Assembly: GCA_964521295.1 (NCBI GenBank) | Contig: CAZFRF010000001.1 | Location: forward strand, 270,146-334,145 | Direction of reading: 5' to 3' | Source of the DNA: an uncultured Gammaproteobacteria bacterium | GTDB taxonomy: Bacteria > Patescibacteriota > Microgenomatia > Levybacterales > UBA12049 | DNA length: 64,000 nucleotides | In this document: positions 9,792-30,033 of the stretch, in pieces | Layout: the number at the start of each line of letters is the position of its first letter | How positions within the stretch are numbered: the first letter of the stretch is position 1 | Position numbers and translations under genes: made by a program | Notes under the pieces: model-generated | What the model saw: the letters and a program-made list of their open reading frames with translations, nothing else | Told to the model about the DNA's origin: nothing | Databases searched by the model: none

Positions 9792-10498
9792 GAAGACGAT
9801 CAAGATTATCAAGCTCACAAGAAAAAAAGAACAAAAAAACTATAATTTTTAGCATAATAGGCATCTTAATTATTGTTATCATCATGTATAAATTTGGCGT
9901 TGAAGCATTAATCAACTTCAGTCTCTTCTTAGGAGGCGGAAAAGACTCTCAAGCAACAACCAACACCAAGCAAATCGACTATGTTTCCCCTCCCATAATC
10001 AACTCCCTTCCTTCAGCTACAAATAGCGCATCAATAATAATTACAGGCTCTGCAAAAAAAGGACAAACAATTGAGCTTTATATCAACAGGACTAAAAAAG
10101 CTACAATGACTAAAATTGATAAGGATGGATTCGAATTTACCCAAGATCTAAAAAAAGGTGAAAATCTAATTCAAGTTAAAGCCAAAGAAGAAGATAAGGA
10201 AAGTGATTTTTCTAACTTTTACACTGTTAACTTTCAAAATGAACCACCCAAGCTTGAACTATCCTCACCCGCGGATGGAGATTCATTTCACAGAGAAGAT
10301 AAATCAGCCAATGTAAGAGGTCAAACAGATGCCGGAGTAACTGTTACAGTCAATGGATTTTTTGCGGTAATTGATGAAAGTAATAATTTTTCTTATACAC
10401 TCCCCCTTCACGATGGAGACAATGATATTCAAATAATTGCCCAAGATCAAGCAGGTAATAAAACAGAAAAGAAAATTAGAGTTAACTATTCTCAGTAA
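9788..10498 (+). CDS. Membrane-anchored protein with two tandem Ig-like (Big-type) repeats
   Basis: N-terminal basic stretch plus a TM helix (IIFSIIGILIIVIIMY). There are two about 70-aa repeats with the pattern GQT..G..V.VNG.........F.....L..G.N.I.I.A.D.AGN. Confidence 0.5.
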   Translation: MRRRSRLSSSQEKKNKKTIIFSIIGILIIVIIMYKFGVEALINFSLFLGGGKDSQATTNTKQIDYVSPPIINSLPSATNSASIIITGSAKKGQTIELYINRTKKATMTKIDKDGFEFTQDLKKGENLIQVKAKEEDKESDFSNFYTVNFQNEPPKLELSSPADGDSFHREDKSANVRGQTDAGVTVTVNGFFAVIDESNNFSYTLPLHDGDNDIQIIAQDQAGNKTEKKIRVNYSQ

Positions 10499-11675
10499 TT
10501 CCAATATATATCCATAAAAACTGCATTATATATACATAAAATAGACTATTAATAAATTGACTATTTGCAATTAAACCAACGATTATCGCAACTACAACTA
10601 CGGCCATCTTATTATTTCTTTTTATTTTTGTTAACGCAAAAATCTTTGACAATAAAAATAAATAAATAGTAAGCCCAATTAAACCGGTCGTCGCAATTAC
10701 AAAAAGAAAGCTATTATCCGTACCCGCACCGGCATGCGTTGTCTCCCACTTAGCGTCATTTACTATTCCGTAATCAAACATCACATATCTAAATGCATTA
10801 AAACCTACACCATAAATTAAATTTTGATCAATTATCTTAAGTGCTGCCTTAGCCGAATCAAGCCTAGCTTCTGAGGAAGCTATTCTAAATAAATTTGTGC
10901 CTTCGGTTTGAAAAGATTTAGGTGAAAAAATAGCTAATATTATTAACAAAAACGTAAACAAAACAAGTAATCTTTTTTTGCCAATTAAAATTAAATAAGC
11001 AACCAAAGAAACAACTAACATAACCAAGGCACTTCTGGAAAAGGTTAAGTATATTTCAATGAAATTAAGGGTTAATAATGAAAAGAGCAATACAATCTTT
11101 ATGTAACTTTTACTTTTATATATTTCAAACAGTAAATTTAGTAAAAAGATAAAAGTAATAACCAAAAAAGCCCCTGCGAAATTTGGATCCAAAAATGAGC
11201 CGAATAATCTGTATAAATGCTCATCCCAACCAAGGTAGTATAAATTTCTTAAGCTTTGATAAAAGTTATACTGTATAAGACCAAACCCCAAAATAACCGT
11301 TATAGGTATTAATAAAAAATATTTTATTCTTTTTACAAATTCTTTATCGAAACTACCTATTATGAAATATACTGAAGCATAAAGTATCCAACGAACTAAA
11401 TATAAAGACGAAACAAAAAGTGAATCAATGTCTAGTCTATAAGCATTTAACGCTAATGAAATAATACAGACAGCAATAAACAGCAGTATGGGTTTAGTAA
11501 GATAATATTTTTTAAAACTAATCTTTTTGTTTTGAAAAATGACCCATGTAAATAAATTTGTTAATAATAAAATGTCATTAAGCGTAAATGCAATTGATCC
11601 AAGTTGAATCCTTCCAATTTCTGCAATTGGGAAAATTAATAAACTAATTAAAAAGGAAAATTTTAATAAACCCAT
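10482..11675 (-). CDS. O-antigen ligase / Wzy_C family polytopic membrane protein
   Basis: About 10-12 predicted TM helices. Wzy_C-like conserved Arg (LTFSRSALV), the GVGFNAF motif and the C-terminal HAGAGTDNSFLFVIATTGLIGL (H..N..L.....GLIG) resemble WaaL/O-antigen polymerase signatures. Confidence 0.5.
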   Translation of the reverse strand: MGLLKFSFLISLLIFPIAEIGRIQLGSIAFTLNDILLLTNLFTWVIFQNKKISFKKYYLTKPILLFIAVCIISLALNAYRLDIDSLFVSSLYLVRWILYASVYFIIGSFDKEFVKRIKYFLLIPITVILGFGLIQYNFYQSLRNLYYLGWDEHLYRLFGSFLDPNFAGAFLVITFIFLLNLLFEIYKSKSYIKIVLLFSLLTLNFIEIYLTFSRSALVMLVVSLVAYLILIGKKRLLVLFTFLLIILAIFSPKSFQTEGTNLFRIASSEARLDSAKAALKIIDQNLIYGVGFNAFRYVMFDYGIVNDAKWETTHAGAGTDNSFLFVIATTGLIGLTIYLFLLSKIFALTKIKRNNKMAVVVVAIIVGLIANSQFINSLFYVYIMQFLWIYIGITENS

Positions 11676-11681
11676 ATTTTA

Positions 11682-13235
11682 TTATTTTGAATAGATTTTA
11701 ACATTTGTAACTAGATTTGTATGAATTAATTTCCAATTTCTAAACTCATTTGGCAAAGCTGTATTTTGAACTGCAATATATTTAAATCTATCACCCTTTT
11801 TATAATACGAGTAGTCAATAAAATTAAAATTTGCATAATATAAGTTATGAAATCCAATGGTTAATACCGTATCATTTTCCCCTAGATTAGTTTTAAAAAA
11901 ATTATCCGTATCATAAAAATCTCCAAAAGAAAAATTTAAATGTTTTACTAAAAATTGATCTTTTGTTTCTAAACCAACAATGTATGGCATGTATTTAACG
12001 CTTGCAATAAATCTATAAACTGTTGAGAAAATTGCAATGAAAATTAATAAAATAAACAATATATTTTTTAATACTTTAAATTCAAGCGAGTTATATACTA
12101 CTATAACCAGAATTGAAAAACCTGCAAGATAAGGCAGTAGGTACCTTGCGCCTCCAATTTGCCCGATTATATACCAAGTAACTAAACTTAATATGCAATA
12201 TAAAATCATTACCTTATTATTAAAATTTAACTTCTTATAAACAATAAGCAACAATGGGAAAATAATTATGTATAGTGGATTTATTGGATCAGAACTAAAT
12301 ACCCAAACGCTTATAAAACTTAATAAATCAAAAGAATGAGTAAATACAATTGATTTGGTAAATAAGGGGTAAAATGGATTTCCTGTGTTTAAATATGGAA
12401 TTATTAAACTTGGTAAAACAATAACAAAGGAAATAAATATAAATATGATCAAATATCTTAAAAACGAAATTAATTTTATTTTTTGGTAGTAAAAGACTAC
12501 AAGCAATAAACTGGAATAAATAAAAAGTGAAGAAACTGCTGACAACTTTACACAGATAGATAAGCCAACAAATAATCCCAAAAAAAAGATACTTTTGAAG
12601 GATTTTCTATTAATAAATTCAATAAAATAAGTTAGGGATAAGACCTCAAAAAATAACCATGCCAAATCCACATAGCTTGTATTAAGCTCCCATGCAAAAA
12701 CTAAATTCGAAGACAGAATAAGCGTTGATAGTAAAGATAGTTTTTCAGAAAAAAATTTACGTGATAGATTATAAATTGCAACTAATGCTAATATTCCAAA
12801 TAAAAAATGGATAATCTTTGTAGTAATTTCACTACCAAACATTAATGCAGGAATATACAGAATATCAACTAATTTTGGCATATCAGAATAATAAAAAAGA
12901 TTTCCTGGTATGTGGAAAATCATATGATGAGCTATAAAAATTTTGGGAATAGTTAAGTGATACCATAAGGCGTCAAATCCAATTTCTGGAGCAATTGTAC
13001 CGATTGAATAGATAGTTAATTGAATAAAAAGCAAAACAAGAAGTAATAAATTAGTTTTAATTTTTAAAATATTAGTTATTCTTAAATTAACTTTTAATTT
13101 AGTTAAAATAACTATGCAAAATACTAAATAGAAACCGGTTAATAGTAAAACATTTTGCGGATAAAGAAGCTTAAAAATTCCTAAAAAATAAATTAAATAT
13201 GAATAGATTCCAATTAATATTGCTATTTTAGACAT
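11682..13235 (-). CDS. Polytopic membrane protein, GT-C fold glycosyltransferase-like (ArnT/PMT-like)
   Basis: 517 aa with more than 12 hydrophobic helices and a C-terminal soluble domain. An early periplasmic-loop acidic motif (IGFDALWYH) and paralogy in architecture with 16252-17805 and 40820-42436. No catalytic motif was confirmed. Confidence 0.4.
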   Translation of the reverse strand: MSKIAILIGIYSYLIYFLGIFKLLYPQNVLLLTGFYLVFCIVILTKLKVNLRITNILKIKTNLLLLVLLFIQLTIYSIGTIAPEIGFDALWYHLTIPKIFIAHHMIFHIPGNLFYYSDMPKLVDILYIPALMFGSEITTKIIHFLFGILALVAIYNLSRKFFSEKLSLLSTLILSSNLVFAWELNTSYVDLAWLFFEVLSLTYFIEFINRKSFKSIFFLGLFVGLSICVKLSAVSSLFIYSSLLLVVFYYQKIKLISFLRYLIIFIFISFVIVLPSLIIPYLNTGNPFYPLFTKSIVFTHSFDLLSFISVWVFSSDPINPLYIIIFPLLLIVYKKLNFNNKVMILYCILSLVTWYIIGQIGGARYLLPYLAGFSILVIVVYNSLEFKVLKNILFILLIFIAIFSTVYRFIASVKYMPYIVGLETKDQFLVKHLNFSFGDFYDTDNFFKTNLGENDTVLTIGFHNLYYANFNFIDYSYYKKGDRFKYIAVQNTALPNEFRNWKLIHTNLVTNVKIYSK

Positions 13236-13302
13236 ATGTTTATTTTACAAAGTAAATTTAAAAAATAAATTAACAATATTATTAAAGAATAAACAATAAA
13301 TG

Positions 13303-14067
13303 TTAAGAAGTAGATTTTTTTTGCCATAACTGCCAAAGCTTTGCTCTAACTAAAAATGAATGAAGGCTCATCATCAAAGCAAGAATCAATCCTTCAATTT
13401 TGTCTAAGCATCCTAATTTAAGAAAATAATTTACTAGGAATTTACCCAATGGGTACATTATGATGTCACTGGCTTTAACCTTAATTTTATTACTGTATAA
13501 TTCATTTGCTCTAATTGTTGAATAAAAATTAATTTCACTTAAAAATTCGTTAATTGAAGAATGTGGAAAGTGATTTAAAACTCCTTCCAAATCTCCTATT
13601 TTCCCATCAATTATTAACCTCTCATGTACTTTTCCAACCCAAGCACCACTTCCCTTTTTAATAAGCCGTGCTAAAAAAACTTTTCCTACCTCTCCGTGCA
13701 AAAATTTCTTATTCCACATATAATCAATGCGCCTAATCATATATCCAGCGTATTTTCCTTCGTTATTTATGATTATTGAGTTAATTTCTTCCCTTAATTC
13801 CTTTGATAGCCTTTCATCGGCGTCAACAAATAGTATCCACTTTTTAGTAGCCTTAGATAAACCAAAATTTTTTTGTTTTGCGAAGTCAAAATCCAAATGA
13901 TTTTGATAAATTTTAATTTTCTGAGTATTAAAATTGTTAATTATCTCGAGCGTTCTGTCAGTTGAATAATCATCAATAATAATAATTTCATCGGCCCAAA
14001 TTACACTCTCTAGGCAATCGACTATATTTTTCTCTTCATTTTTAGTTAAAATTATTATGCTTAACAT
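13303..14067 (-). CDS. Glycosyltransferase family 2
   Basis: LSIIILTKNEE...IIIIDDYSTDRT...FVDADE are the classic GT2 DXD and nucleotide-binding motifs. 254 aa, soluble. Confidence 0.75.
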   Translation of the reverse strand: MLSIIILTKNEEKNIVDCLESVIWADEIIIIDDYSTDRTLEIINNFNTQKIKIYQNHLDFDFAKQKNFGLSKATKKWILFVDADERLSKELREEINSIIINNEGKYAGYMIRRIDYMWNKKFLHGEVGKVFLARLIKKGSGAWVGKVHERLIIDGKIGDLEGVLNHFPHSSINEFLSEINFYSTIRANELYSNKIKVKASDIIMYPLGKFLVNYFLKLGCLDKIEGLILALMMSLHSFLVRAKLWQLWQKKSTS

Positions 14068-16255
14068 TTCTATCCCCTTTTATAATTTTAGTTCCAGATG
14101 GCGTTTCATACAAGATATATATCAAATTACTTTTTTGATCGATATTTCCTCCATAAAACCAAATTAAATATTTATAATAATCCAGAAAACTTATAAATTG
14201 ACTACCATCACCTTTTCCAACCAAACGCGCTCCTCTTCCATTAGAATCTTTAACGATGTATTTAGCGGCTTCATTTTTTGAAAAATATTTAACTTTATCT
14301 TCATAAGCTTGATAATATCCAGATGTATTAAGATAAATTAAATTAGTAAGAAGAGATGTGGCAATCAATGCTATAAAAATGATATTTAAAATCTTGCTTT
14401 TAAATATACTACCTAAAAAGGCAGAAACTAAAAGAATTAAGGGAATTATTAGAGAGTAAAGATAAGCATCAGACAAAGTTTTATTTATAAAAATACCCAA
14501 AACTAGAAAAAAACAAATTAAAATAATAATTACAAAACTGCCAGATTTTTTAATAAAAACTCTATAAAACCCATAAACGCTACTAATCAAAAATAAACTT
14601 AACGATATTAAACTAAATTGAATATAAAATAAGCGATTAATAAACTCACTGAAATAACTAACAATTGGACCCAAAGCAAATTCTGAATTAGAATTTAAGA
14701 AAATAGATGACGCTTTATATATTATCCATCCAGCAAAAACAAATGTTTGAGGAAATCCATTTTTTAAATCAAATATTAAAATCGGTATTAACGGGATAAT
14801 TACTGAAACAAGGGACAATATTACTATCTTGTGATTCTTTAGAGATGTAACCCAATTCTTTTTTTTTATTAAACCATAAACAAAAAATAATAATGTAATA
14901 AAAATAAAGATTACAGTTTGTAATTCGAAATTATATAAAAGCGCAAGAAGTAATAAAAGTAAAGGAAAATACATAAAATTACCCTTGGTCCATTTATATA
15001 AAGAGTAAATTGTTAAAATTGTTAGAAAAGGAATTAAGCTTGTATGATATGACATCCTAGATGCCATAATTACATATGGGGAAAATGCATAAAATACTGA
15101 AGCTACCAAACCAGTAGTATTGTTAAATATTCTGGAGGATAATTTATAAACTAAACTTAAAGTTATTAAATCAAGAAACACCGTAAAAAACACAGGGGAT
15201 AAGGGATTAAAATTAAAAACTTTGAAAATTGCTGCTAAAACATATGTCCATAATGCTCCTTGATGTAACCATAAGTGACTTGACGTTATTCCAACTAATG
15301 GTAATTCATTTAGTAGCAGCATATCTCTTGCTGACAAATAAAACCAACCCTGGTCACCAATTCCCAGATTGATTACTGAAGATAAATGGAATATTCGCAT
15401 AGAAGCTGCAAAAACAAAAATTAAGAGAAATATCAAATTATTGATATTTATACTTAAAAATAGATTTAATACTAAAGATTTAAATAACCCAAATTTTTTT
15501 TGAAAATAGTAATTCCTACTTTCTATAAAAATCTCATTTTTATTTTCTAATAACTTTGTCGAGGTTCCCCATTTATGCACTAACTTTAACCTAGAATCAA
15601 TAAATATTTCATAACCCAATGCTCTTACTCTATCGCACAAATCAAACTCTTCGAAATATAAAAAGAATTTTTCATCAAATCCTCCAACTTCAATAAAGAC
15701 TCTTGTTCTAATAACAAACGCCGTGCCAGGAACATTATCTACCCTTGTCGGCTTATTAACATTCCATTTCTTTGTCCAATACTTCTTAGATATAAAATTA
15801 TTAGGGAATATCTTGTCTAAAAAAGAAAATTTTACTACTGCATCAAAAAAATTAACATTCTTGGCTCCTTGGCTCATAATCGATTTGTTGGAATTTAATA
15901 AAAGTGGAGCTACAATCCCTATGTTTGTTTTTTTACTAAATTCTTTGTAAATTGTGGATAAAATATTTTGCGTAAAAACTACATCCGGATTAAGAATAAA
16001 TAAAAATTCTCCTTTGGCATGCTTTGCGCCATAATTAACTCCTGATCCATAACCCAAATTTCTACCAGAATTAAAGTAAATTAGATTTTTATATTTAGTT
16101 AATTTACTTTTTACCGAAGTGTCTTCACTGTTATCTACGATAATTACTTCAAATAGATTTTCTGGATTGAATTCGTACAAGCTGTCTAACGTAATTATTA
16201 AGTCTTGTTCATTTTTATAATAAACAATTATTATCGAATATTTAAAATTTTTCAT
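14042..16255 (-). CDS. Fusion protein: N-terminal GT2 glycosyltransferase plus C-terminal polytopic GT-C-like membrane domain
   Basis: Residues 1 to about 250 show GT2 motifs (IIIVYYKNEQDL, VDNSEDT, GYGSGVNYG, LNPDV, FDE). Residues from about 270 form more than 12 TM helices with a C-terminal soluble tail. 737 aa. Confidence 0.7.
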   Translation of the reverse strand: MKNFKYSIIIVYYKNEQDLIITLDSLYEFNPENLFEVIIVDNSEDTSVKSKLTKYKNLIYFNSGRNLGYGSGVNYGAKHAKGEFLFILNPDVVFTQNILSTIYKEFSKKTNIGIVAPLLLNSNKSIMSQGAKNVNFFDAVVKFSFLDKIFPNNFISKKYWTKKWNVNKPTRVDNVPGTAFVIRTRVFIEVGGFDEKFFLYFEEFDLCDRVRALGYEIFIDSRLKLVHKWGTSTKLLENKNEIFIESRNYYFQKKFGLFKSLVLNLFLSININNLIFLLIFVFAASMRIFHLSSVINLGIGDQGWFYLSARDMLLLNELPLVGITSSHLWLHQGALWTYVLAAIFKVFNFNPLSPVFFTVFLDLITLSLVYKLSSRIFNNTTGLVASVFYAFSPYVIMASRMSYHTSLIPFLTILTIYSLYKWTKGNFMYFPLLLLLLALLYNFELQTVIFIFITLLFFVYGLIKKKNWVTSLKNHKIVILSLVSVIIPLIPILIFDLKNGFPQTFVFAGWIIYKASSIFLNSNSEFALGPIVSYFSEFINRLFYIQFSLISLSLFLISSVYGFYRVFIKKSGSFVIIILICFFLVLGIFINKTLSDAYLYSLIIPLILLVSAFLGSIFKSKILNIIFIALIATSLLTNLIYLNTSGYYQAYEDKVKYFSKNEAAKYIVKDSNGRGARLVGKGDGSQFISFLDYYKYLIWFYGGNIDQKSNLIYILYETPSGTKIIKGDRNVKHNNFN

Positions 16256-17805
16256 TTTGCTTTATATACATAAACTAGCACTGCATTACTTACTTTTACT
16301 TCATAAACGAGATTATATTTTTTCCTTATTTTTTCGTCGTTAAAACCATCTCTAATTATATGATAATGATTAACAACCACATAATCGTATTCTGACTCAT
16401 CATTATATCTTGAATAATTAAAAATGGGATTTTTGGGAAATGTAATTTCCGGTGAAATAGCTAATCCAATTCTCGAATTATCAATGGCATTTTTATTCAA
16501 ATATATCCCGGCTTCTCTTTGCCCTTGGCCCCACCAGCCAATCTGGAATAGGTTGTATTTATATACATTATCTACTCCCCCAATTAATTCATTATAATAG
16601 TCTAAATAATAAGGGGAAACATATACTAAGCTAAGTAATAGATATATTCCAAAGAAAATTAAAATAATTATTTTCTGAAGATACCTTAGTCTTTCTAAGA
16701 CAAAATTCAACCCAACTGCTGAAATAATTGCAATTGCTGGATATATTTCAATAATATATCTAAGCCCATGCTGTCTCCATGAATAGAAAGAAAGCAGGAA
16801 AGGCACTATAAACCATAAAACAATTAGCCACTTTTGATAATTAATACTCTTTAAAACCTTAATCAAGCCTAGGAAAAACAAAACAATTATCACAACTGGT
16901 ATCGAGATAAAAAAATATACTAAATAATAAAAAATAGGCGTTATCCTTAAACTACCCATAAATACTTCTGGCGGTGACAGGGTAAAAATTAATGGGTTAG
17001 GTGAAAATTTAACCGACCAAAGCTTGTCATTTATCTCCATAATTTCTGAAAAATGAAGAACTGCCTGTGGCCAAACTGCAATAAAAACAAAACAAGAAAT
17101 AATAAAAACTTGAATAAAAATTTTAAAATATTTTTTAATATGCTCTTTTTTTTCTTTTTTTATAAAACTTTTACACTTAAACCACATTGCAAAACCAAGA
17201 ATTATAAAAAGAAGCAGATCACTCTGCTTTGCTTGCAATGCAAAACCTGTTAACACTCCTGCTAACAATATTCTTTTCTTAGTAGTTTCCTCTAATAACA
17301 ATAAATAAGAATATATTGCAATTGGATATATAAAAAGTTTTAAGCTTTCTGCAGTCACCAATTGAGACAATCCAACCGTAAAAGGCAACATTAAGTAAAT
17401 AAAACCACTTATTATACCTATATTAAAATTGAATATCTTACCTGAGATTAAAATTACAAATAATAATCCAATTGAAAACAAAACTGCTGATAAAATACGT
17501 GAAAACGTATAATCATAATTAAAAATTGCATTATTCTTAACAGTGGCTTCCTTGTCAAACACGGCACTTACTCCATAGATATATTTAACTAAAGGCGGAT
17601 GATCATATGATGTATAAAAATATTCATTATTAAAATCTCCCTTTTCAAAAATTTTAATAAATTTATATCCTTGCTCTATATATACGCTTTCATCCCAAGT
17701 CCTTCCAATTTCATTTAAGGTTGACAACCTTACTACTAACGAAAAGACAAAGAATAAGAATAAAATGAATACTTTTTTATAGATAATATTAATTTGCAAA
17801 TTCAT
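16252..17805 (-). CDS. GT-C fold membrane glycosyltransferase (GT39/GT83, ArnT/PMT-like)
   Basis: N-terminal TM followed by a periplasmic-loop DE motif (TWDESVY) and YDHPPL, both typical of the PMT/ArnT family. More than 12 TM helices. 517 aa. Confidence 0.6.
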   Translation of the reverse strand: MNLQINIIYKKVFILFLFFVFSLVVRLSTLNEIGRTWDESVYIEQGYKFIKIFEKGDFNNEYFYTSYDHPPLVKYIYGVSAVFDKEATVKNNAIFNYDYTFSRILSAVLFSIGLLFVILISGKIFNFNIGIISGFIYLMLPFTVGLSQLVTAESLKLFIYPIAIYSYLLLLEETTKKRILLAGVLTGFALQAKQSDLLLFIILGFAMWFKCKSFIKKEKKEHIKKYFKIFIQVFIISCFVFIAVWPQAVLHFSEIMEINDKLWSVKFSPNPLIFTLSPPEVFMGSLRITPIFYYLVYFFISIPVVIIVLFFLGLIKVLKSINYQKWLIVLWFIVPFLLSFYSWRQHGLRYIIEIYPAIAIISAVGLNFVLERLRYLQKIIILIFFGIYLLLSLVYVSPYYLDYYNELIGGVDNVYKYNLFQIGWWGQGQREAGIYLNKNAIDNSRIGLAISPEITFPKNPIFNYSRYNDESEYDYVVVNHYHIIRDGFNDEKIRKKYNLVYEVKVSNAVLVYVYKAK

Positions 17806-18904
17806 TTTTTATAAAACTAGTTTTACTTATTAATAATTTTTCTAACTCTTTTCCTTTGATTTTCCAATCCCATCTTTCAACCATTTCTTTTCTAGCATTC
17901 ATTCCCATTTTTTTTATTATATTTTCATTTCTTAATAGTCCGTCAATTTTTTGTGCAAATATTTTTGCATTCCGATTTAATAAATATCCTGTTTTAGAAT
18001 CAACTATTGTTTCTTGATGTCCCGCTTCATCAACTGCAATTACTGGCACACCACAAGACATTGCCTCCAGAGGAACCATACCCATTGGCTCCTTATAAGA
18101 TACAGAGATTAATATTTTAGATTTTCTATATACATTTATTAATTCATAATCCGATAACCACTCGTTTTCGAAAACAACGGCTCTAATCTTGGGGCTTAAT
18201 TCCATATTTTCAATGGTTTTCCTAAAAAAAGGATAACCATCTAGCTTATCAAAAGAACCAATAAATAATAAATCGAATTCTTTTTTTATTTTTTTTGGAA
18301 AGAATTGTTTTACATTAACTCCACAATGAACAACATCTCCATCGACCCCGTAAATTTTTTTAAATTGCCTTCGGGTATAATTTGAATTAAAAATAATATG
18401 GCAGGCGGATTTAATATTAAAAATATCAAGTTTTTTTCTTATATATCTATTTAAATTTTCGTAATACGTTCTAAATATGTCAACATTTACTGGTTTAAAT
18501 AGTTCTGGCTCATAAATGATTCTGTAATATGGATCATGGCAATAAAAAAACGAGGGTACTTTAAGATATTTTAAAATAAAAGGAGATTCAATAAATTGTG
18601 AGGCACAAACAAACACTAAATCATATTTTATACCAATATCTTTTCCTATTTTCCTATTTAAATTATTTAATTTTATAAGTTCAACTGTATCTTTATATAA
18701 TCTTACAAAAGGATTATTCCCTGTCCATTTTTTGACATGAAAAGAATATGAATAAATACGTGAATAAAAAGATTCTTCATTTTTTATAAAATCTATTGTG
18801 TATAAATCTACAGTATGACCAAGAATTTTAAGTTGCCTTGCGAACTCATTCGTAGACCTTCTTGCTCCTCCTTTATGTAATTCATGATAAACAGCTATTT
18901 TCAT
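17789..18904 (-). CDS. Glycosyltransferase family 4 (GT-B fold)
   Basis: The C-terminal EPMGMVPLEAMSCGVPVIA..D.GHQE motif (E-x7-E) is characteristic of GT4. Confidence 0.8.
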   Translation of the reverse strand: MKIAVYHELHKGGARRSTNEFARQLKILGHTVDLYTIDFIKNEESFYSRIYSYSFHVKKWTGNNPFVRLYKDTVELIKLNNLNRKIGKDIGIKYDLVFVCASQFIESPFILKYLKVPSFFYCHDPYYRIIYEPELFKPVNVDIFRTYYENLNRYIRKKLDIFNIKSACHIIFNSNYTRRQFKKIYGVDGDVVHCGVNVKQFFPKKIKKEFDLLFIGSFDKLDGYPFFRKTIENMELSPKIRAVVFENEWLSDYELINVYRKSKILISVSYKEPMGMVPLEAMSCGVPVIAVDEAGHQETIVDSKTGYLLNRNAKIFAQKIDGLLRNENIIKKMGMNARKEMVERWDWKIKGKELEKLLISKTSFIKNEFAN

Positions 18905-20124
18905 TTATTATTAAAAATTTTCCTTAAGAAATATAAGGAAACTGGAATAGGCACGATAACACCTAAGAGGGCAGCGAATGCAACGCCAAGTAATCCAAAA
19001 TAGGTTATTAAAGGGAAAATACATATTACTAAAACAATCAGGTTAATTAACGTAATTATTGATGAATAAATTTGCTTATTTACCGACAAAAACACAATTG
19101 CAGGAAAACCAAAGATTGAATGAACTACGCCCAATACGACTAAGATTTTTAAAATATTTACCATTGGTAACCATTGTTTTCCTAAAAAAAACTCAATCAA
19201 ACCATTAGCAAAGAAAAAAACAACAAAGCCAAATGGAACCGTTATCAATATCAATAATAATTCCGTTTTCAAAAAAGCTTTTCTTAACCTTTCTAAATCA
19301 TCAGAAAACTTTGAATATACCGGAAAAGTTACCCTTGAGATAACATCCGCAACATCTGTAATAGGTAACATTGCAATATTGTAAGACATCTCATACAAGC
19401 CAAGATTGTAAGTTCCTAGAAATTTACCAACAATAATATTGTCTAAATTATGAAACAAATAATTAAAAATTCCGCTTAACGTAACCCACTTACCTTGGTT
19501 GATTATTCTATAAATGTATAAACGTTTAAATTTTATCTGAGGCCTTGGTTTTATCAATAAAAAAGAAAGAATTACTTGAAAAATTACACCAGTTAACATG
19601 CCTATAACCAGACCAGAAATATTCTTAATTATTAAAACCAAAAATATTGTTGCCAACATGTCTATGAATGCTATTGACATTCTATAAATAAAATCTTTAT
19701 CAAAATTAATTTCTTTTTGAAATTTAATCTCTGCAGGATTAATAAACCCTCTTATTAAAGGTACAAAACTAAATAGAATTAAAATATTTTTTATATGCGG
19801 GGCCTTAAAAAAATCAGCAATAAACCCCGAAAATATTATAAATACAAAGAAAATTATAAAACCTCTAGCAATTGATACAATCCATGCAGAATTAATATAT
19901 TTACTCAAATTTTCCTTTTTTTGTATTAAAAAAACATTTACTCCTGTTTCTGTTAATGTTTCTAATAAGGCTAATATTAATAATGAAATACCAAAATCAC
20001 CAAATTCTCGTGGGGTTAAAATTCTAGCTAATATTAAAATTTTTAATAATGAAATACCTCTTATAAATATACTTTGGGCCCATGCCCACGAAAGACCATG
20101 AATAGTTCTAGAAGAATAACCCAT
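18901..20124 (-). CDS. Polysaccharide biosynthesis protein, Wzx-like flippase (MOP superfamily)
   Basis: 407 aa, about 12 TM helices. N-terminal GLSWAWAQSIFIRGISLLKILILARILTPREFG is typical of the Wzx/polysaccharide_synt N-terminus. Confidence 0.6.
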   Translation of the reverse strand: MGYSSRTIHGLSWAWAQSIFIRGISLLKILILARILTPREFGDFGISLLILALLETLTETGVNVFLIQKKENLSKYINSAWIVSIARGFIIFFVFIIFSGFIADFFKAPHIKNILILFSFVPLIRGFINPAEIKFQKEINFDKDFIYRMSIAFIDMLATIFLVLIIKNISGLVIGMLTGVIFQVILSFLLIKPRPQIKFKRLYIYRIINQGKWVTLSGIFNYLFHNLDNIIVGKFLGTYNLGLYEMSYNIAMLPITDVADVISRVTFPVYSKFSDDLERLRKAFLKTELLLILITVPFGFVVFFFANGLIEFFLGKQWLPMVNILKILVVLGVVHSIFGFPAIVFLSVNKQIYSSIITLINLIVLVICIFPLITYFGLLGVAFAALLGVIVPIPVSLYFLRKIFNNK

Positions 20125-20151
20125 ATTGGTGATTGAAATTATAACATTTTC

Positions 20152-21396
20152 ATGTTTATAATAATATGCTGCCCCATAAAAATGAAAATTAACCAGTGTA
20201 GATCTTGTGGATCAAAGAATTTATTAAAAATAGTATCTTTAGGTAAACAGTATTTGTCTGACTTTACTAAGACGAATAAGAAACCTAAATCCTTCCCCTT
20301 GACAATGATGGTATGTAAAAAATGTTTTCTAGTCCAATTAGACTACAATACTCCACAAAAATATTTATATACTCCTAGATATGGGTACAAATCAGGCATA
20401 AACCAAACAATGCACGATGAATTAAGAGGCATTGCTCAAGAAGCGTTTAAAAAAATCAAAAAAACAAAGGAAAAAATTGTAGTAATCGATATTGGCGCTA
20501 ACGATGGCACTCTACTAAGCTACTACCCAAAAAATCTACATAGAATTGCTGTTGAACCAATAAAAAAACTTGCAGAAATATCAAAGAAGCATGCTAATGA
20601 GGTTGTAAATAATTTCTTTAGTTATGAATCCTACAAAAGAAAGACAAAAAATTTACATGCAGATGTTATTTCTGCAATATCTTGCTTCTATGATATGGAA
20701 GATCCAAACAAATTTGTTGCTGATGTAAAGAAAATAATGAAAGAAGATGGAATTTTTATAATTCAACAAAATTATTTAGTTAGTATGTTAAAAATAAATG
20801 CATTCGACAATATCGTCCATGAACATTTAGAATATTACTCCTTACTATCCTTAAATAATCTTTTAGAAAAACATGGCATGGAAGTATTTGATGTTGAAAC
20901 AAGAACTTTAAACGGCGGAAGCTTCAGAACATATATTGCGCTAAAAGGGAAGAGAAAAATATCTAAAAGTGTTTTAGAGATGCAGAAGACGGAAAAAAGG
21001 CTAAAATTAAATAATAAGAAAATTTACCTCGATTTCGCTAAAAGAATCGCAAAAGAAAAAGAAAAAATTACAGAGTTTATTAAAAAAGAAGTTAAAAAAG
21101 GAAAAAGAGTTTATTTATATGGAGCTTCAACTCGAGGCAATACAATGCTTCAGTACTTTGGTCTTGACCATAAGCTTATTCAATTTGCAGTCGAAAGAAA
21201 TCCAGAAAAATTCGGAAAAATAATATCCTCAGTTGGGATACCAATTATTTCTGAGGAACAGGCCAGGAAAGATAAGCCAGAGTATATGTTAGTATTACCA
21301 TGGTTTTTCAAAGAAGAATTTCTAAAGAGAGAAAAAGATTATCTAAAAAAAGGCGGTCATTTTATCTTCCCCTTGCCTAAATTGGAAATTATCTAG
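20152..21396 (+). CDS. Sugar C-methyltransferase: N-terminal Zn-ribbon plus class I SAM methyltransferase plus C-methyltransferase C-terminal domain
   Basis: CRSCGS...CKKC zinc ribbon, SAM-binding VIDIGANDGTLL, and an NDP-hexose C-methyltransferase-like tail (TylCIII-like architecture). The true start is probably the ATG at about 20182 (MKINQCRSCG). Confidence 0.65.
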   Translation: MFIIICCPIKMKINQCRSCGSKNLLKIVSLGKQYLSDFTKTNKKPKSFPLTMMVCKKCFLVQLDYNTPQKYLYTPRYGYKSGINQTMHDELRGIAQEAFKKIKKTKEKIVVIDIGANDGTLLSYYPKNLHRIAVEPIKKLAEISKKHANEVVNNFFSYESYKRKTKNLHADVISAISCFYDMEDPNKFVADVKKIMKEDGIFIIQQNYLVSMLKINAFDNIVHEHLEYYSLLSLNNLLEKHGMEVFDVETRTLNGGSFRTYIALKGKRKISKSVLEMQKTEKRLKLNNKKIYLDFAKRIAKEKEKITEFIKKEVKKGKRVYLYGASTRGNTMLQYFGLDHKLIQFAVERNPEKFGKIISSVGIPIISEEQARKDKPEYMLVLPWFFKEEFLKREKDYLKKGGHFIFPLPKLEII

Positions 21397-22099
21397 TTAA
21401 TCTTAATTTAATAACATAAAACAAAGAAACTAATAGCTCTTGAATGTTAACATTTGATTTTCCATAAATTCTATAATTCCAAGTAATTGGTACCTCGCCG
21501 ATTAGGAATTTTTGTTTATTAATTTTATATAAAACTTCCGATAAAGTAATAAAGCCCTTTGATTCAATTCTTGTTTTTAACAAATAATCAATACTTTTTC
21601 TTGAATACAACCTAAAACCACTTGTAAAATCAGATACTTTAACATTTAACCAAAATTTTAAATAAAAATTTATAACTCTACTTAATATTGTTCTATTTTT
21701 TGTAATATTTTTAATTCTACTTCCTTTCAAGTATCTCGATCCAATAACCAAATCATATTGATTAGTTTTAATTTTATTTATAAATCTTTTAATTTCTGCT
21801 GCATCATGAGCTAAATCAGAATCCATCTCTAGGAAATAATGTATGTTTTTTAATTTATAAGCTTCCCTGAAGCCCAACATTACTGCACTTCCTCTTCCAG
21901 ACTTTTTCATACGTGAAATAAGCTTAACATTTGTATACAAACGCATGGCTTTTTTAATTTTTTCATTCTCTTCGGGCCTAGAATCATCTATTATAAAAAT
22001 CTTAAAAGAGGGATATGAATTCTTAATTTTTTTTACCAAAATTTTAAGGTTTTCGGATTCATTGTAGGATGGAATAATAACAGCAAAATTATTTTTCAT
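21389..22099 (-). CDS. GT2 glycosyltransferase, polyprenyl-phosphate sugar synthase (DPM1/GtrB-like)
   Basis: AVIIPSYNESENL, IIDDSRPE, MDSDLAH and the size (236 aa) match dolichyl/undecaprenyl-phosphate mannose or glucose synthases. Confidence 0.7.
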   Translation of the reverse strand: MKNNFAVIIPSYNESENLKILVKKIKNSYPSFKIFIIDDSRPEENEKIKKAMRLYTNVKLISRMKKSGRGSAVMLGFREAYKLKNIHYFLEMDSDLAHDAAEIKRFINKIKTNQYDLVIGSRYLKGSRIKNITKNRTILSRVINFYLKFWLNVKVSDFTSGFRLYSRKSIDYLLKTRIESKGFITLSEVLYKINKQKFLIGEVPITWNYRIYGKSNVNIQELLVSLFYVIKLRLTR

Positions 22100-24675
22100 T
22101 TTTTATAAATACTTATTTCAACAGGGCTTTGAACAATCGCAGCCATATAGTAGTTTAAATCATTTGTAAACAGAAATAAATATTTAAAATTAGGAGAAAA
22201 TTCTTTTATCAATTTATATTTATTTTTCTGTAAATTTTTATATATATCTTTTGTTTCTGAATTATGTTTATACATAGATTCAATACCAACGTTAGTTAGA
22301 ATTACATATTCAGGATAGGTTTTATCACTTGTTTGTATTATTTTGTATTTATATTTATTATTATTCTCGATCTTATACTGCTTAAAATAAAACTCTTTAA
22401 CAACCAAGTCTGGCAACCCTTGATAAATTGGAATATTTTGTATTCCAATTGTAGAATTTATTGGAATATTTTTATTTATCCAATACGTTGATGATTGACG
22501 AGGATCACTAAATAATTTTAGAGGCATCCATGAAAATGATTCAACTACCTGGAGAAGGATAATGAAAATTATAAAAATTAGAATTAACAAGTTATTAAAT
22601 CTTTTCAACAAAAACTTAATAAGATAACTAACAAAATATGCAAAAAATGGAATTAAAATTAATACTCGATTATTTGTAGCATCTAATTTTAAAGGAATTA
22701 AGCTACAGGCAAATAAAATAAAAATTATAATAAAAGTAATTAATGTTCTATTTTCAAAAATATATCTATATTTATTTTTTAAAATAAATATGTTTCCTAG
22801 TAAAATAGAAATAAAAAGAATCATACCTAAAATTGCAATAATATAAAAAGTATGACTAAAAAGAGTAGGAAATAAATCTATTAATAAATAAGGCCAAATT
22901 TTGTTTGTAATTTGAAAATTTGCCACATTAAAATCTGGTGTCCTAGATAAAGTAGATGAAAGATATTCATTTAAACTACCCTTAGCCAAAAGAATATCTA
23001 TGACTCCGAAAGATAAAAAAGTGGATATATATATCACTCCTCCCTTTATAAGAGTAAAGATATGACTTCTCCAATTTTTATTAAAAATAAATATTAATCC
23101 TAATATCGGAATAAGCGCAAAAGGTGAAAGCTTTACGGATAAAGCCAAGGCGGATAATAAACATGCAAAGTAAAAATAATAATACTTAAATTCTTTTACG
23201 TATTTCAGAATAAATAGTATTGATAATAATGTCCAAAACATTAAGGCAATATCGTACTTAAAATACCCACTTAACATTAGCCACATAGGATTAAAAGTAA
23301 AAAAGAAGGTTGAGATCACTGGATTAATTTTTAAAATTTTTTTAGATAAATAATAAAACGCAAGAATACTTAATATTCCAAACAAAATAGTATTTGTACG
23401 CAAAACAATAAATAAGACCTGTTGAATATCAATGTTTAATACAGATGATTTGATTAAAAAAGGATTTACGACTTTTATTACCATAAACGGAATTAAATAT
23501 AAACCCGTTAAGAAAAAATGGAATATTGATCCATTTGCGGAGCCAGAAATATTTGGAGAACCAAATTTAAATAAGTTTCTTACTGACTGACTTTGATGCC
23601 ACTCATCCATAAAGTAATTAAAAGGATGACTATTTCCAGGAATTCCCCAACTAATCTGCGCCAGGCAAGCCCCAATGTAAATTAATAAAATAATTAAAAG
23701 CATTCTTTGCTTAAACAGTTTTCTTGTTAATAAATTAAAATTTACACCTACAAAAAACGCCTTAACTGTTCCAGACAAAACAGCAAAATCTGCAATAAAT
23801 TGAATCAGCGGCAAAAATATTAAACCTTTAATATTTTTTACATATTTATAATTTTTAAGAATTATCCAGAACAAATAAACTATCGCCCCTCCAGTAATCA
23901 ATAAATTTAGATACAATGATTTCATAATTGGAATCAAAATTACTAAATAGAGAGCAATAAAATATCTATAAATAAGCCAAAAAACTTTTTCTCTAATAAT
24001 ACCCGACTCAATATCTCCATATGCAAATCTATAAAACATTTTAAAAGCTGATTTTATATTAGATCTAGGTTGCCAATAGACAATCGCGTTTTGAATAAAT
24101 TTAATATTAAAACCTTCGTCCTTTATTTTGTTTGCAAACACATAATCTTCATTGTGGGAATATTTAACATCAAAGCCCCCAATACTCGACCATACTTTTT
24201 TCCTTAAAGCCATTGATCTTGTAGCAGGTAAAAAAGTGTTTGGATCCACTTTATCTGGCATAACCAATGCATATGGTATTAATGACTTTTGAAAAATACT
24301 TGCATGTTTCCCTTTATAATATCCAGCAACAACATCTACATTTGGAGAAAAAGATGAATACATATTTTTTACCCAATCTTTATGAAGCTCACATCCAGAA
24401 TCAGTAATTAGTATAATCTCAAATTTTGATTTTTTAATCGCTAAATTTCTACCTAAAGACCGATTCCCTTTTTTAACAAAAAATTTGATATTTAATTTTT
24501 TATGTTTCGAAGAAATTTCTTGGATTTTATTAACAGTTTTATCATTACTTCCCCCGTCAACAATTATAATTTCCGATGGTAATAGTGTCTGCTTGACTAC
24601 AGACTCTAAAAACCTACTAACTGTATCCTCTTCGTTTAAAACAGTACAAATTAATGAACATTTAGCCTTAGCCAT
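22096..24675 (-). CDS. Fusion protein: N-terminal GT2 glycosyltransferase plus large C-terminal polytopic membrane domain
   Basis: N-terminal CSLICTVLNEEDTV, IIIVDGGSNDKT, ITDSGCE, NEDYVF are GT2 motifs. About 15 TM helices and a Lys/Tyr-rich soluble tail follow. 859 aa. Same architecture as 14042-16255. Confidence 0.7.
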   Translation of the reverse strand: MAKAKCSLICTVLNEEDTVSRFLESVVKQTLLPSEIIIVDGGSNDKTVNKIQEISSKHKKLNIKFFVKKGNRSLGRNLAIKKSKFEIILITDSGCELHKDWVKNMYSSFSPNVDVVAGYYKGKHASIFQKSLIPYALVMPDKVDPNTFLPATRSMALRKKVWSSIGGFDVKYSHNEDYVFANKIKDEGFNIKFIQNAIVYWQPRSNIKSAFKMFYRFAYGDIESGIIREKVFWLIYRYFIALYLVILIPIMKSLYLNLLITGGAIVYLFWIILKNYKYVKNIKGLIFLPLIQFIADFAVLSGTVKAFFVGVNFNLLTRKLFKQRMLLIILLIYIGACLAQISWGIPGNSHPFNYFMDEWHQSQSVRNLFKFGSPNISGSANGSIFHFFLTGLYLIPFMVIKVVNPFLIKSSVLNIDIQQVLFIVLRTNTILFGILSILAFYYLSKKILKINPVISTFFFTFNPMWLMLSGYFKYDIALMFWTLLSILFILKYVKEFKYYYFYFACLLSALALSVKLSPFALIPILGLIFIFNKNWRSHIFTLIKGGVIYISTFLSFGVIDILLAKGSLNEYLSSTLSRTPDFNVANFQITNKIWPYLLIDLFPTLFSHTFYIIAILGMILFISILLGNIFILKNKYRYIFENRTLITFIIIFILFACSLIPLKLDATNNRVLILIPFFAYFVSYLIKFLLKRFNNLLILIFIIFIILLQVVESFSWMPLKLFSDPRQSSTYWINKNIPINSTIGIQNIPIYQGLPDLVVKEFYFKQYKIENNNKYKYKIIQTSDKTYPEYVILTNVGIESMYKHNSETKDIYKNLQKNKYKLIKEFSPNFKYLFLFTNDLNYYMAAIVQSPVEISIYKK

Positions 24676-24722
24676 ATTGTGGTTGAATTATAGCACCTCC
24701 TACATTAGAATACAGAGATATT

Positions 24723-29324: not shown

Positions 29325-29371
29325 ATCCAGATTCTAACACAATCTAAGAAGCTAAAGAAGATAAAAAATCA

Positions 29372-29995: not shown

Positions 29996-30033
29996 AATTA
30001 ATTATGAATATATATCATTACAAAAATCAAGTG

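What the first reader, a model, noticed from the sequence alone, without database searches (positions are those of the whole stretch)
14042..16255. GT2 catalytic domain fused to a about 470-aa polytopic membrane domain (first of two)
A single 737-aa ORF joins a complete cytoplasmic GT2 domain (DNSEDT, GYGSGVNYG, LNPDV) to more than 12 TM helices and a soluble tail. It may be a natural fusion of a polyprenyl-phosphate sugar synthase with the GT-C-like transferase or flippase that uses its product. That would be analogous in logic to mycobacterial Ppm1 (membrane-domain-plus-synthase fusion), but in the opposite domain order.
Basis: inference. Interest (0 to 1): 0.55.

Follow-up and report, generated by a model that had tools for sequence, protein, structure and literature searches.

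The report
Fused inside-outside membrane glycosyltransferase (GT2 plus GT-C)

Summary
The 737-aa ORF exists as described, on the minus strand (14042-16255). It carries a GT2 domain (aa 5-235) and a PMT_2/GT-C domain (aa 271-644, about 13 TM helices), followed by an 85-aa tail that lies outside the cell. It is not an assembly artefact. More than 120 protein clusters (38-82% identity, 94-100% coverage) and 38 of 52 related genome loci carry the same continuous fusion. Adjacent split versions and stand-alone GT-C versions also occur.

The membrane half is GT-C. Its top structural matches are STT3/PglB/AglB, ALG12/9, AftA, ArnT and PMT, and none is a transporter. An invariant Asp301 sits in the first outer loop.

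The GT2 half is WbbL/rhamnosyltransferase- and GalNAc-T-like. It has NPD, EExD and His227, and shows no match to polyprenyl-phosphate sugar synthase families. A separate gene in the same cluster (21389-22099) is the synthase type. The same GT-C family is also found fused to GT4 enzymes.

The most likely function is a two-sided enzyme in a conserved Wzx/Wzy_C surface-glycan operon. The GT2 half would extend a lipid-linked glycan in the cytoplasm, and the GT-C half would transfer sugar outside the membrane. Interest is modest.

The parts
14042..16255 (-). Whole ORF, 737 aa plus stop codon: GT2~GT-C fusion protein
   Evidence: Identical protein P0001 is on a 935,984-bp NCBI contig. The start overlaps the stop of the upstream GT-C gene by 4 nt, and the 3' end overlaps the next GT2 gene by 26 nt.
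15551..16243 (-). Cytoplasmic GT-A fold GT2 catalytic domain (aa 5-235). It carries the nucleotide-binding VDN (D41/N42), the NPD metal motif (N89, D91), the EExD acid cluster (E202, E203, D205) and His227.
   Evidence: Pfam PF00535/PF10111. The best NCBIfam match is TIGR01556 rhamnosyltransferase. These residues are invariant or at least 90% conserved in 46 homologues. Foldseek top hits are ppGalNAc-T2, WrtF and the Leptospira GT 6p61.
15455..15541 (-). Linker: a basic/aromatic interfacial helix (aa 239-255) and a short hydrophobic helix (aa 257-267) that lead into TM1
   Evidence: DSSP of the AF2 model. Composition. The rhamnosyltransferase profile still aligns up to aa 295, so this linker corresponds to the C-terminal membrane-association helix of stand-alone relatives (inference).
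14324..15445 (-). GT-C fold membrane domain (aa 271-644), about 13 TM helices, N-terminus inside and C-terminus outside
   Evidence: PMT_2 is above the gathering score. The membrane-only AF2 model has pLDDT 88.2 and pTM 0.90. Foldseek hits with E<=0.001 are all STT3/AglB/PglB or ALG12, followed by ALG9, AftA, ArnT, PMT, AftB/D and Emb. The topology is inferred from the helices and the K/R-rich loops at aa 464-466, 568-571 and 618-620.
15242..15364 (-). First extracytoplasmic loop (aa 298-338), motif GDQGWFYLSARD...PLVGITSSH.WLHQG. It holds the candidate catalytic Asp301 (codon 15353-15355) and Asp311.
   Evidence: This is the most conserved stretch of the protein. D301 is 100% conserved in 68 stand-alone and 51 fused representatives.
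14741..14776 (-). Conserved outer-face motif D496...Q503-T504 (IFDLKNGFPQTF). Together with R400/H404 (15041-15058) and E444, these are candidate donor-phosphate or metal ligands.
   Evidence: Conservation is 92-100% (R400, D496, Q503, T504) and 86-98% (H404, E444) in both fused and stand-alone forms. The roles are inferred, not tested.
14063..14308 (-). Small alpha/beta C-terminal domain (aa 650-731), predicted to lie outside the membrane, with conserved Y696 and W699
   Evidence: AF2 secondary structure. Conservation. The outside location follows from the 13-TM count (inference).
16252..17805 (-). Upstream neighbour: stand-alone GT-C (PMT_2), 517 aa
17789..18904 (-). GT4 glycosyltransferase, syntenic with the fusion in most loci
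18901..20124 (-). Wzx-type flippase (Polysacc_synt_3, E 7e-72)
13303..14067 (-). Downstream small GT2 (254 aa), found immediately after the fusion in nearly all loci
11682..13235 (-). GT-C (PMT_2), 517 aa, syntenic
10482..11675 (-). Wzy_C domain protein (O-antigen ligase, polymerase or O-oligosaccharyltransferase type), syntenic
21389..22099 (-). Polyprenyl-phosphate sugar synthase-type GT2 (matches the AglJ, PpgS and ArnC models). This is the likely donor maker for the cluster's GT-C enzymes.
22096..24675 (-). Second GT2~GT-C fusion (859 aa). Its GT2 half is a different subtype, and its membrane domain is weakly PMT_2- and Agl23-like.

Best explanation
The ORF encodes a bifunctional glycosyltransferase with active sites on both sides of the membrane. 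It belongs to a conserved Wzx/Wzy_C-type surface-glycan (or protein O-glycosylation) operon of Levybacteria.

Shown here. An intact Leloir-type GT2 domain faces the cytoplasm. It carries a DxD-like NPD motif, an acidic EExD cluster and His227, and it is of the WbbL/GlfT1/GalNAc-T-like kind. It is tethered through an interfacial helix to a 13-TM GT-C domain. The conserved polar residues of that domain (D301, D311, R400, H404, E444, D496, Q503, T504) lie in loops inferred to face outward.

Inferred. The GT2 domain uses a nucleotide sugar to add one residue to a polyprenyl-phosphate-linked or polyprenyl-diphosphate-linked glycan at the inner face. After Wzx flips the lipid-linked intermediate, the GT-C domain transfers sugar from a polyprenyl-phosphate-linked donor to the growing glycan or its final acceptor. 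That donor is either the monosaccharide carrier made by the DPM1-like synthase at 21389-22099 or the flipped oligosaccharide itself. On this reading the fusion ties a cytoplasmic elongation step to an extracytoplasmic step of the same pathway. It is not a donor synthase joined to its consumer.
For: Both domains are real and confidently modelled.

GT2 subtype. All 46 homologues hit rhamnosyltransferase TIGR01556, HpsN and MftF. 38 hit GlfT1, 28 hit PglI and 19 hit AglG, and these last three act on lipid-linked sugars. PDB profile matches to GalNAc-Ts span aa 5-234, whereas matches to DPMS, GtrB and ArnC stop at about aa 110. Foldseek top hits are GalNAc-T2 and WrtF, an O-polysaccharide fucosyltransferase. 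The catalytic residues are invariant.

GT-C half. Every strong Foldseek hit is a GT-C enzyme. D301 and the other outer-face residues are equally conserved in 68 stand-alone and 51 fused representatives.

Context. The order FUS2-Wzx-GT4-FUS1-GT2-GT-C-Wzy_C is conserved across about 40 loci. A synthase-type GT2 is encoded separately. The GT-C family is also fused to GT4 in P0262, and the neighbouring 16252-type GT-C is fused to GT4 in L030. MraY, MurG and FtsW in the window show that the organism uses undecaprenyl-phosphate carriers.

Precedent. Lactococcal WpsC enzymes elongate C55-P-linked GlcNAc in the cytoplasm before GT-C-mediated transfer outside the membrane (PMC10821137).
Against: No biochemical data exist for any member, and the literature searches found no study of this architecture. 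The donor sugar, the acceptor and the lipid carrier are all unknown. The GT2 subtype assignment rests on sub-threshold family scores: 61.9 bits against a cutoff of 200.55 for TIGR01556. Stand-alone GT-C orthologues occur with no FUS1-type GT2 within 6 kb (L016, L036, L037, L041), so the two activities need not be obligatorily coupled. No priming phosphoglycosyltransferase was found in the cluster. The topology is inferred from helices and charge, not measured.
Confidence: 0.5

Rival explanations
1. The GT2 domain charges polyprenyl phosphate with a monosaccharide, and the fused GT-C domain uses that very product outside the membrane. This would be a covalently linked GtrB/GtrC-, ArnC/ArnT- or Ppm1/Pmt-type pair.
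For: Fusions usually join functionally coupled steps. The GT2 domain is held at the membrane surface by an interfacial helix. GT2 plus GT-C is the composition of the known multi-component transmembrane glycosylation systems (PMC10821137). Adjacent split GT2 and GT-C gene pairs exist (L019, L027, L039).
Against: There is no match to any polyprenyl-phosphate sugar synthase family (AglJ, PpgS, ArnC) in 46 members, whereas the neighbouring ORF 21389-22099 matches them all. Similarity to the solved synthases DPMS, GtrB and ArnC is confined to the N-terminal ~110 aa. The acceptor half resembles GalNAc-T, beta4GalT and WbbL-like enzymes, with a His227 metal ligand and an acidic cluster typical of hydroxyl acceptors. 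The same GT-C family is fused to GT4, and it also exists without a nearby GT2.
Confidence: 0.2
2. The GT-C domain is an oligosaccharyltransferase- or ligase-like enzyme. It moves the completed, flipped polyprenyl-diphosphate-linked glycan en bloc onto a protein or cell-wall acceptor. The fused GT2 adds the last cytoplasmic sugar, the one that marks the glycan as complete.
For: The best Foldseek E-values are to STT3, AglB and PglB (2e-5 to 3e-4). Weak archaeo_STT3 hits occur in 8 of 46 members. The C-terminal outside domain carries a conserved Y-x-Y-L-x-W-W-x-G element. A syntenic Ig-like surface protein with an S/T-rich linker could be the acceptor.
Against: TM-scores are the same for ArnT, ALG12 and OSTs (0.54-0.59). 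The STT3 hits score about 18 bits against a cutoff of 450 and cover only aa 329-393. There is no WWDYG motif, and the C-terminal domain is 85 aa rather than roughly 250 or more. The cluster already encodes a Wzy_C protein, the usual ligase or O-OTase type.
Confidence: 0.15
3. The GT-C-like domain is catalytically inert. It serves only as a membrane anchor or scaffold that positions the GT2 domain, or binds the lipid carrier for it.
For: The same membrane module is fused to different cytoplasmic GTs: GT2, GT4, and a GT2 with two membrane modules in P0121.
Against: The strongest conservation in the whole protein lies in the outer loops, not at the cytoplasmic face. Stand-alone copies keep the same residues. 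The fold and the position of the loop-1 Asp match active GT-C enzymes.
Confidence: 0.07

Closest known systems
Multi-component transmembrane glycosylation systems (GtrB/GtrA/GtrC, CsbB/GtcA/YfhO, GacI/J/K/L, ArnC/ArnT)
   Same: A cytoplasmic GT-A/GT2 enzyme works with a polytopic GT-C enzyme on a polyprenyl-phosphate carrier. The window's cluster also encodes a synthase-type GT2 and a Wzx flippase.
   Different: Here the GT2 and GT-C are one polypeptide. The fused GT2 is not of the synthase clade. No GtrA-type small flippase was seen in the cluster.
WbbL / GlfT1 / TIGR01556 rhamnosyltransferase-type GT2 enzymes (COG1216-like), WrtF and PglI
   Same: These are the best sequence and fold relatives of the N-terminal domain. 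They share the NPD / EExD / His motif pattern, and they act on lipid-linked glycans at the inner face.
   Different: The scores are far below the family cut-offs (61.9 against 200.55). Those enzymes are soluble or peripheral proteins of about 280-320 aa and carry no GT-C domain.
GT-C fold family A enzymes (ArnT, PMT1/2/4, STT3/PglB/AglB, ALG9/12, AftA)
   Same: They share the fold, the roughly 13-TM topology with the N-terminus inside, and a conserved Asp in the first outer loop. The domain matches Pfam PMT_2.
   Different: Sequence profiles detect no similarity to any solved GT-C. The outside domain is very small. OST motifs are absent. The domain carries an N-terminal cytoplasmic GT.
   Same: A GT2 catalytic domain is fused to a polytopic membrane domain (from my own knowledge of the family).
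   Different: In Ppm1 the membrane domain is Lnt/CN-hydrolase-like and N-terminal, and the GT2 is a true polyprenyl-phosphate mannose synthase. Here the membrane domain is GT-C and C-terminal, and the GT2 is not synthase-type.
Lactococcal Wps pathway (WpsA/B, WpsC, WpsG, WpsH, WpsJ)
   Same: Cytoplasmic GT2 enzymes elongate a sugar on C55-P. A Wzx-type flippase moves it across, and GT-C enzymes polymerise and transfer it outside (PMC10821137). This is the same logic as proposed here.
   Different: The proteins are separate in lactococci. No sequence relationship to them was tested here.

Membership tests
GT2 (Pfam Glycos_transf_2, GT-A fold) | Profile match above the gathering score, and a GT-A fold with a DxD-type metal motif | tested here: met
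   PF00535 scores 64.3 bits against a cutoff of 23.3. The AF2 and Foldseek hits are GT-A enzymes. D91 of the NPD motif is invariant.
Rhamnosyltransferase subfamily TIGR01556 (WbbL-like) | Whole-protein score at or above the curated cut-off of 200.55 bits | tested here: not met
   The score is 61.9 bits, although the alignment covers profile positions 13-275 of 281. All 46 homologues hit the model below its cut-off. The domain is a relative of the subfamily, not a member, so the sugar specificity is unknown.
Polyprenyl-phosphate sugar synthases (DPM1/GtrB/ArnC/PpgS/AglJ clade of GT2) | Match to synthase family models over the whole catalytic domain, including the acceptor half | tested here: not met
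   There is no hit to TIGR04182, NF058614 or NF007986 at E<=0.01 for the ORF, nor at E<=0.001 in 46 homologues. The neighbouring ORF 21389-22099 hits all three. PDB synthases align only to aa 2-114.
GT-C fold glycosyltransferases (PMT_2 / ArnT-like) | Profile match above the gathering score, the GT-C membrane fold, and a conserved acidic residue in the first extracytoplasmic loop | tested here: met
   PF13231 scores 41.1 bits against a cutoff of 26.1. All Foldseek hits with E<=0.001 are GT-C enzymes, with TM-scores of 0.48-0.58. D301 is 100% conserved. Catalytic activity itself cannot be tested with these tools.
Oligosaccharyltransferases (STT3/PglB/AglB) | A WWDYG motif in a large C-terminal outside domain, and a family model score above the cut-off | tested here: not met
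   There is no WWDYG motif; the nearest element is YLIWFYGG at aa 696-703. The C-terminal domain is about 85 aa. TIGR04154 scores about 18 bits against a cutoff of 450, over aa 329-393 only.
Ppm1-type fusion | An Lnt/CN-hydrolase-like membrane domain joined to a polyprenyl-phosphate mannose synthase domain | tested here: not met
   The membrane domain is GT-C, and the GT2 is not synthase-type.
Lipid-linked sugar flippase or transporter | A Wzx/MOP, GtrA, ABC or other transporter fold | tested here: not met
   Transporter hits in Foldseek have probability of 0.08 or less and TM-scores of 0.14 or less. A separate Wzx gene is present at 18901-20124.
Three-component periplasmic glycosylation system (as a system) | A synthase-type GT2, a flippase and a GT-C encoded together | tested here: inconclusive
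   The cluster holds a synthase-type GT2 (21389-22099), a Wzx and six GT-C-like proteins. Sequence alone cannot tell which GT-C uses which donor.

The most novel reading that the evidence does not exclude
The fusion could be a self-contained, two-sided glycosylation module. A WbbL-like (non-DPM1-type) GT2 would build a polyprenyl-linked sugar or short glycan, and the same polypeptide's GT-C domain would take it over and transfer it outside. The lipid-binding groove of the GT-C domain might even provide the translocation path. More broadly, Levybacteria would organise envelope glycan assembly as repeated 'Leloir GT + GT-C' modules, with GT4~GT-C, GT2~GT-C and GT2/GT-C gene pairs, which is a design not described in model bacteria.
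Probability: 0.1. Interest if true: 0.7.

Novelty: new variant of a known kind. Interest (0 to 1): 0.33.

Why it matters
Patescibacteria (the candidate phyla radiation, CPR) have tiny genomes, yet this Levybacteria genome gives about 20 kb of a ~0.94-Mb contig to envelope glycosylation, including seven GT-C-type membrane proteins in the 64-kb window. A conserved enzyme with one active site on each face of the membrane would be a compact way to couple the inner and outer steps of glycan assembly. It could also serve as a tractable single-polypeptide model for how cytoplasmic glycosyltransferases cooperate with GT-C enzymes. In practical terms, the result corrects a tempting annotation: 'GT2 fused to GT-C' does not by itself mean 'donor synthase plus consumer'. 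Both domains nonetheless belong to well-known families, automated pipelines already label the protein with both functions, and nothing here contradicts current models of polyprenol-dependent glycosylation.

Tried and rejected
1. Assembly or frameshift artefact: rejected. The continuous fused ORF occurs in 38 of 52 independent genomes and in more than 120 protein clusters. Three loci (L009, L014, L038) do look broken, but they are exceptions.

2. Membrane domain as a transporter or flippase: rejected by the fold search.

3. The full-length Foldseek search against the PDB was swamped by GT-A hits. I therefore built a second, membrane-only model and searched with that.

5. Sequence-profile search of the PDB found no GT-C relative.

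6. Seven literature searches for GT2/GT-C fusions, CPR glycosylation and Pfam architecture names found nothing describing this family. The Actinoplanes paper was not relevant.

7. STT3 membership: considered because of the fold ranking and weak TIGR04154 hits, and rejected.

8. A rough NJ tree of 120 GT-C domains shows fused and stand-alone forms interleaved, with at least 31 state changes. It has no support values, and some 'stand-alone' entries may be gene-calling fragments, so I do not use it to count fusion events.

9. Model coordinates are not exposed to the scripting tool. I could not measure the inter-domain geometry or the positions of conserved residues, so the topology is inferred from helix order and charge.
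Full report
**1. Observation**

The ORF lies on the minus strand at 14042-16255. It starts with ATG and encodes 737 aa.

Pfam finds Glycos_transf_2 (aa 7-119, E 1.7e-17), Glyco_tranf_2_2 (aa 9-212) and PMT_2 (aa 336-492, 41.1 bits, above the 26.1-bit gathering score). An AlphaFold2 model built on 46 homologues is confident, with mean pLDDT 87.1 and pTM 0.82. It shows these parts in order:
- a GT-A domain at aa 5-235;
- two linker helices at aa 239-255 and 257-267;
- a helical membrane bundle at aa 271-644;
- a small alpha/beta domain at aa ~650-731.

**2. Not an artefact**

A search of 5.8 billion proteins returned 605 hits. The best 120 are all 711-753 aa long, cover 94-100% of the query and are 38-82% identical. 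They come from many independent assemblies of Levybacteria, Roizmanbacteria, Microgenomates and 'Patescibacteria group' bacteria.

A scan of one genome per species found 52 loci.
- 38 carry one continuous ORF of 717-767 aa.
- Three (L019, L027, L039) have a GT2 gene directly followed by a separate GT-C gene. In L027 the two overlap by 4 nt.
- Several have a stand-alone GT-C of 456-472 aa with no FUS1-type GT2 nearby (L016, L036, L037, L041; in L043 the only one lies about 3 kb upstream).
- Three look broken (L009, L014, L038).

An exhaustive HMMER search with the membrane half alone gave 1726 hits (164 at E<=1e-30). Among the top 150, 51 are fused-length and 68 are stand-alone-length representatives. 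So the fusion is natural and dominant in these genomes, but not universal.

**3. The membrane half is a GT-C glycosyltransferase**

A membrane-only model (pLDDT 88.2, pTM 0.90) was searched against the PDB.
- The 18 hits with E<=0.001 are all STT3, AglB, PglB or ALG12.
- These are followed by ALG9, AftA, ArnT, Pmt1/2/4, AftB, AftD and Emb proteins, with TM-scores of 0.43-0.59 for the hits that align most of the domain.
- Transporters appear only at probability below 0.1.

The most conserved stretch of the whole protein is the loop after TM1, G-D301-Q-G-W-F-Y-L-S-A-R-D311...P-L-V-G-I-T-S-S-H-x-W-L-H-Q-G. D301, S326, Q332, R400, D496, Q503 and T504 are 92-100% conserved in both fused and stand-alone forms. 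D311, H404, E444, Y696 and W699 are 83-100% conserved.

Helix order and the lysine/arginine-rich loops (KKK 464-466, IKKS 568-571, FKS 618-620) fit a 13-TM topology with the N-terminus inside and the C-terminus outside. That places every one of these conserved polar residues on the outer face (inference). This is the canonical GT-C arrangement, so the domain is very probably catalytically active. The fold alone cannot say whether the donor is a polyprenyl-phosphate monosaccharide or a polyprenyl-diphosphate oligosaccharide. ArnT, ALG12 and the OSTs give similar TM-scores. The weak STT3 model hits (18 bits against a cutoff of 450, aa 329-393 only) reflect the shared N-terminal GT-C module and not OST membership.

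**4. The GT2 half is not a polyprenyl-phosphate sugar synthase**

- NCBIfam ranks rhamnosyltransferase TIGR01556 first (61.9 bits, nearly full profile coverage). Next come MftF-like, HpsN and GlfT1.
- All 46 aligned homologues hit TIGR01556, HpsN and MftF. 38 hit GlfT1, 28 hit PglI and 19 hit AglG. None hits AglJ, PpgS or ArnC.
- The 236-aa ORF at 21389-22099 in the same cluster hits AglJ (5e-18), PpgS (2e-17) and ArnC (2e-13). The method therefore does detect synthases when they are present.
- A family profile matches GalNAc-transferases over aa 5-234. It matches the solved synthases DPMS, GtrB and ArnC only over aa 2-114.
- Foldseek's best GT-A hits are ppGalNAc-T2, the O-polysaccharide fucosyltransferase WrtF and a Leptospira GT.
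- N42, N89, D91, E202, D205 and H227 are invariant, and D41 and E203 are at least 90% conserved. This is the pattern of metal-dependent GT-A enzymes that glycosylate hydroxyl acceptors.

All scores are below the family cut-offs, so the sugar specificity is unknown.

**5. Context**

The gene sits in a low-GC (24-29%) island at about 10-30 kb. It is tightly packed on the minus strand and appears to be translationally coupled, because its start overlaps the upstream stop by 4 nt and its end overlaps the next gene by 26 nt.

The order FUS2 - Wzx - (C-methyltransferase) - GT4 - FUS1 - small GT2 - GT-C - Wzy_C is conserved in about 40 loci. An Ig-like membrane protein is encoded divergently at the end of the cluster. 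The window also holds MraY, MurG, FtsW and MurA, so undecaprenyl-phosphate carriers are in use.

Cytoplasmic Leloir GTs and GT-C genes alternate along the operon:
- GT4 then GT-C;
- GT2~GT-C (the finding);
- GT2 then GT-C;
- GT2~GT-C (the second fusion).

In L030 the GT4 and the following GT-C are fused into a 901-aa protein. P0262 is a GT4 fused to the FUS1-type GT-C. GT4 enzymes are not known to make polyprenyl-phosphate sugars (established knowledge of CAZy families). Fusion to this GT-C family therefore does not imply a synthase-consumer relationship.

**6. Mechanism**

My best-supported reading (confidence 0.5) is a two-sided bifunctional enzyme.
- The GT2 domain is held at the inner membrane surface by its interfacial helix. 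It adds one sugar from a nucleotide sugar to a lipid-linked glycan.
- Wzx then flips the intermediate.
- The GT-C domain, using D301 as the catalytic acid/base, transfers sugar from a polyprenyl-phosphate-linked donor to the glycan or its acceptor on the outer face.

The existence, integrity and orientation of the domains are shown or strongly inferred. The substrates and the order of steps are inferred only. A precedent for cytoplasmic GT2 elongation on a monophosphate carrier followed by GT-C transfer exists in lactococci (PMC10821137).

The rivals are:
- an OST- or ligase-like en-bloc transferase (0.15);
- an inert anchor (0.07).

**7. Comparison and novelty**

The protein works like a covalent version of the GT-A plus GT-C partnerships of polyprenol-dependent glycosylation. 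By the tests run here it is a member of GT2 and of the GT-C/PMT_2 superfamily. It is not a member of the synthase clade, the OSTs, or the Ppm1-type fusions.

JGI's pipeline already names a homologue 'GT2 family glycosyltransferase/4-amino-4-deoxy-L-arabinose transferase-like glycosyltransferase', so the two-domain make-up is already visible to routine annotation. The searchable library held no paper on this family. I rate it a new variant of a known kind, with interest 0.33. It is real, conserved and mechanistically suggestive, but it is built from ordinary parts and has no experimental anomaly attached to it.

Noticed in passing
window 10482-24675 (minus strand); L030:758-3463; P0262: Cytoplasmic Leloir GTs and GT-C genes alternate along the operon: GT4 then GT-C, GT2~GT-C, GT2 then GT-C, GT2~GT-C. 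In other genomes the GT4 is itself fused to a GT-C (a 901-aa ORF in L030, and the 878-aa P0262). This suggests a modular 'inner GT + GT-C' design whose logic is unexplained.
   Followed up: partly
window 22096-24675 (-) and 21389-22099 (-): The second fusion (859 aa) has a different GT2 subtype (EpsD/HpnI/GT21-like). Its membrane domain hits PMT_2 only weakly and also TIGR03663 (Agl23, flippase-associated). Its stop overlaps by 4 nt the start of a DPM1/PpgS/AglJ-type polyprenyl-phosphate sugar synthase gene.
   Followed up: partly
window 14147-14182 (-), aa 692-703: The C-terminal outside domain carries a conserved Y-x-Y-L-x-W-W-x-G element (YLIWFYGG in this protein). Y696 and W699 are conserved in both fused and stand-alone forms. 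It superficially recalls the WWDYG motif of oligosaccharyltransferases, but this may be coincidence.
   Followed up: partly
window 9788-10498 (+): This is a 236-aa protein with an N-terminal TM helix, a Ser/Thr-rich linker and Ig-like domains (Glucodextran_B, Big_13). It is encoded divergently at the end of the glycan cluster in most related loci. It could be the glycosylation target or a glycan-binding surface protein.
   Followed up: no
window ~10000-30000: A low-GC island (24-29% GC against 33-36% in the flanks) coincides with the glycosylation cluster, as is typical of O-antigen-like loci. The cause could be horizontal transfer or the membrane-protein amino-acid bias; this was not resolved.
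   Followed up: no
window 24723-26582 (+), 26579-28324 (+), 40820-42436 (+): These are three further GT-C-type membrane proteins: one weak PMT_2, one PTPS_related/YfhO-like, and one clear PMT_2 at E 8e-13. That makes at least seven GT-C-like genes in 64 kb of a genome whose contig is about 0.94 Mb.
   Followed up: no
window 51402-52319 (-): A 305-aa protein carries a CAP12/Pycsar-type TIR effector domain (E 7e-39). It is a possible anti-phage defence gene in a CPR bacterium.
   Followed up: no
P0121 (1092 aa); L047:3734-7395; L039:5532-8555: These are architectural variants: a GT2 followed by two PMT_2 regions in one protein (P0121), a 755-aa fusion followed by an extra stand-alone paralogue (L047), and two tandem stand-alone GT-C paralogues after a separate GT2 (L039).
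   Followed up: partly
L001-L052 record titles: Many loci with Levybacteria-type synteny come from MAG records titled 'uncultured Gammaproteobacteria bacterium'. A few are titled Sulfotelmatobacter, Acidiferrales or Actinomycetota. These are probably placeholder or mis-binned labels rather than a true wide distribution.
   Followed up: no
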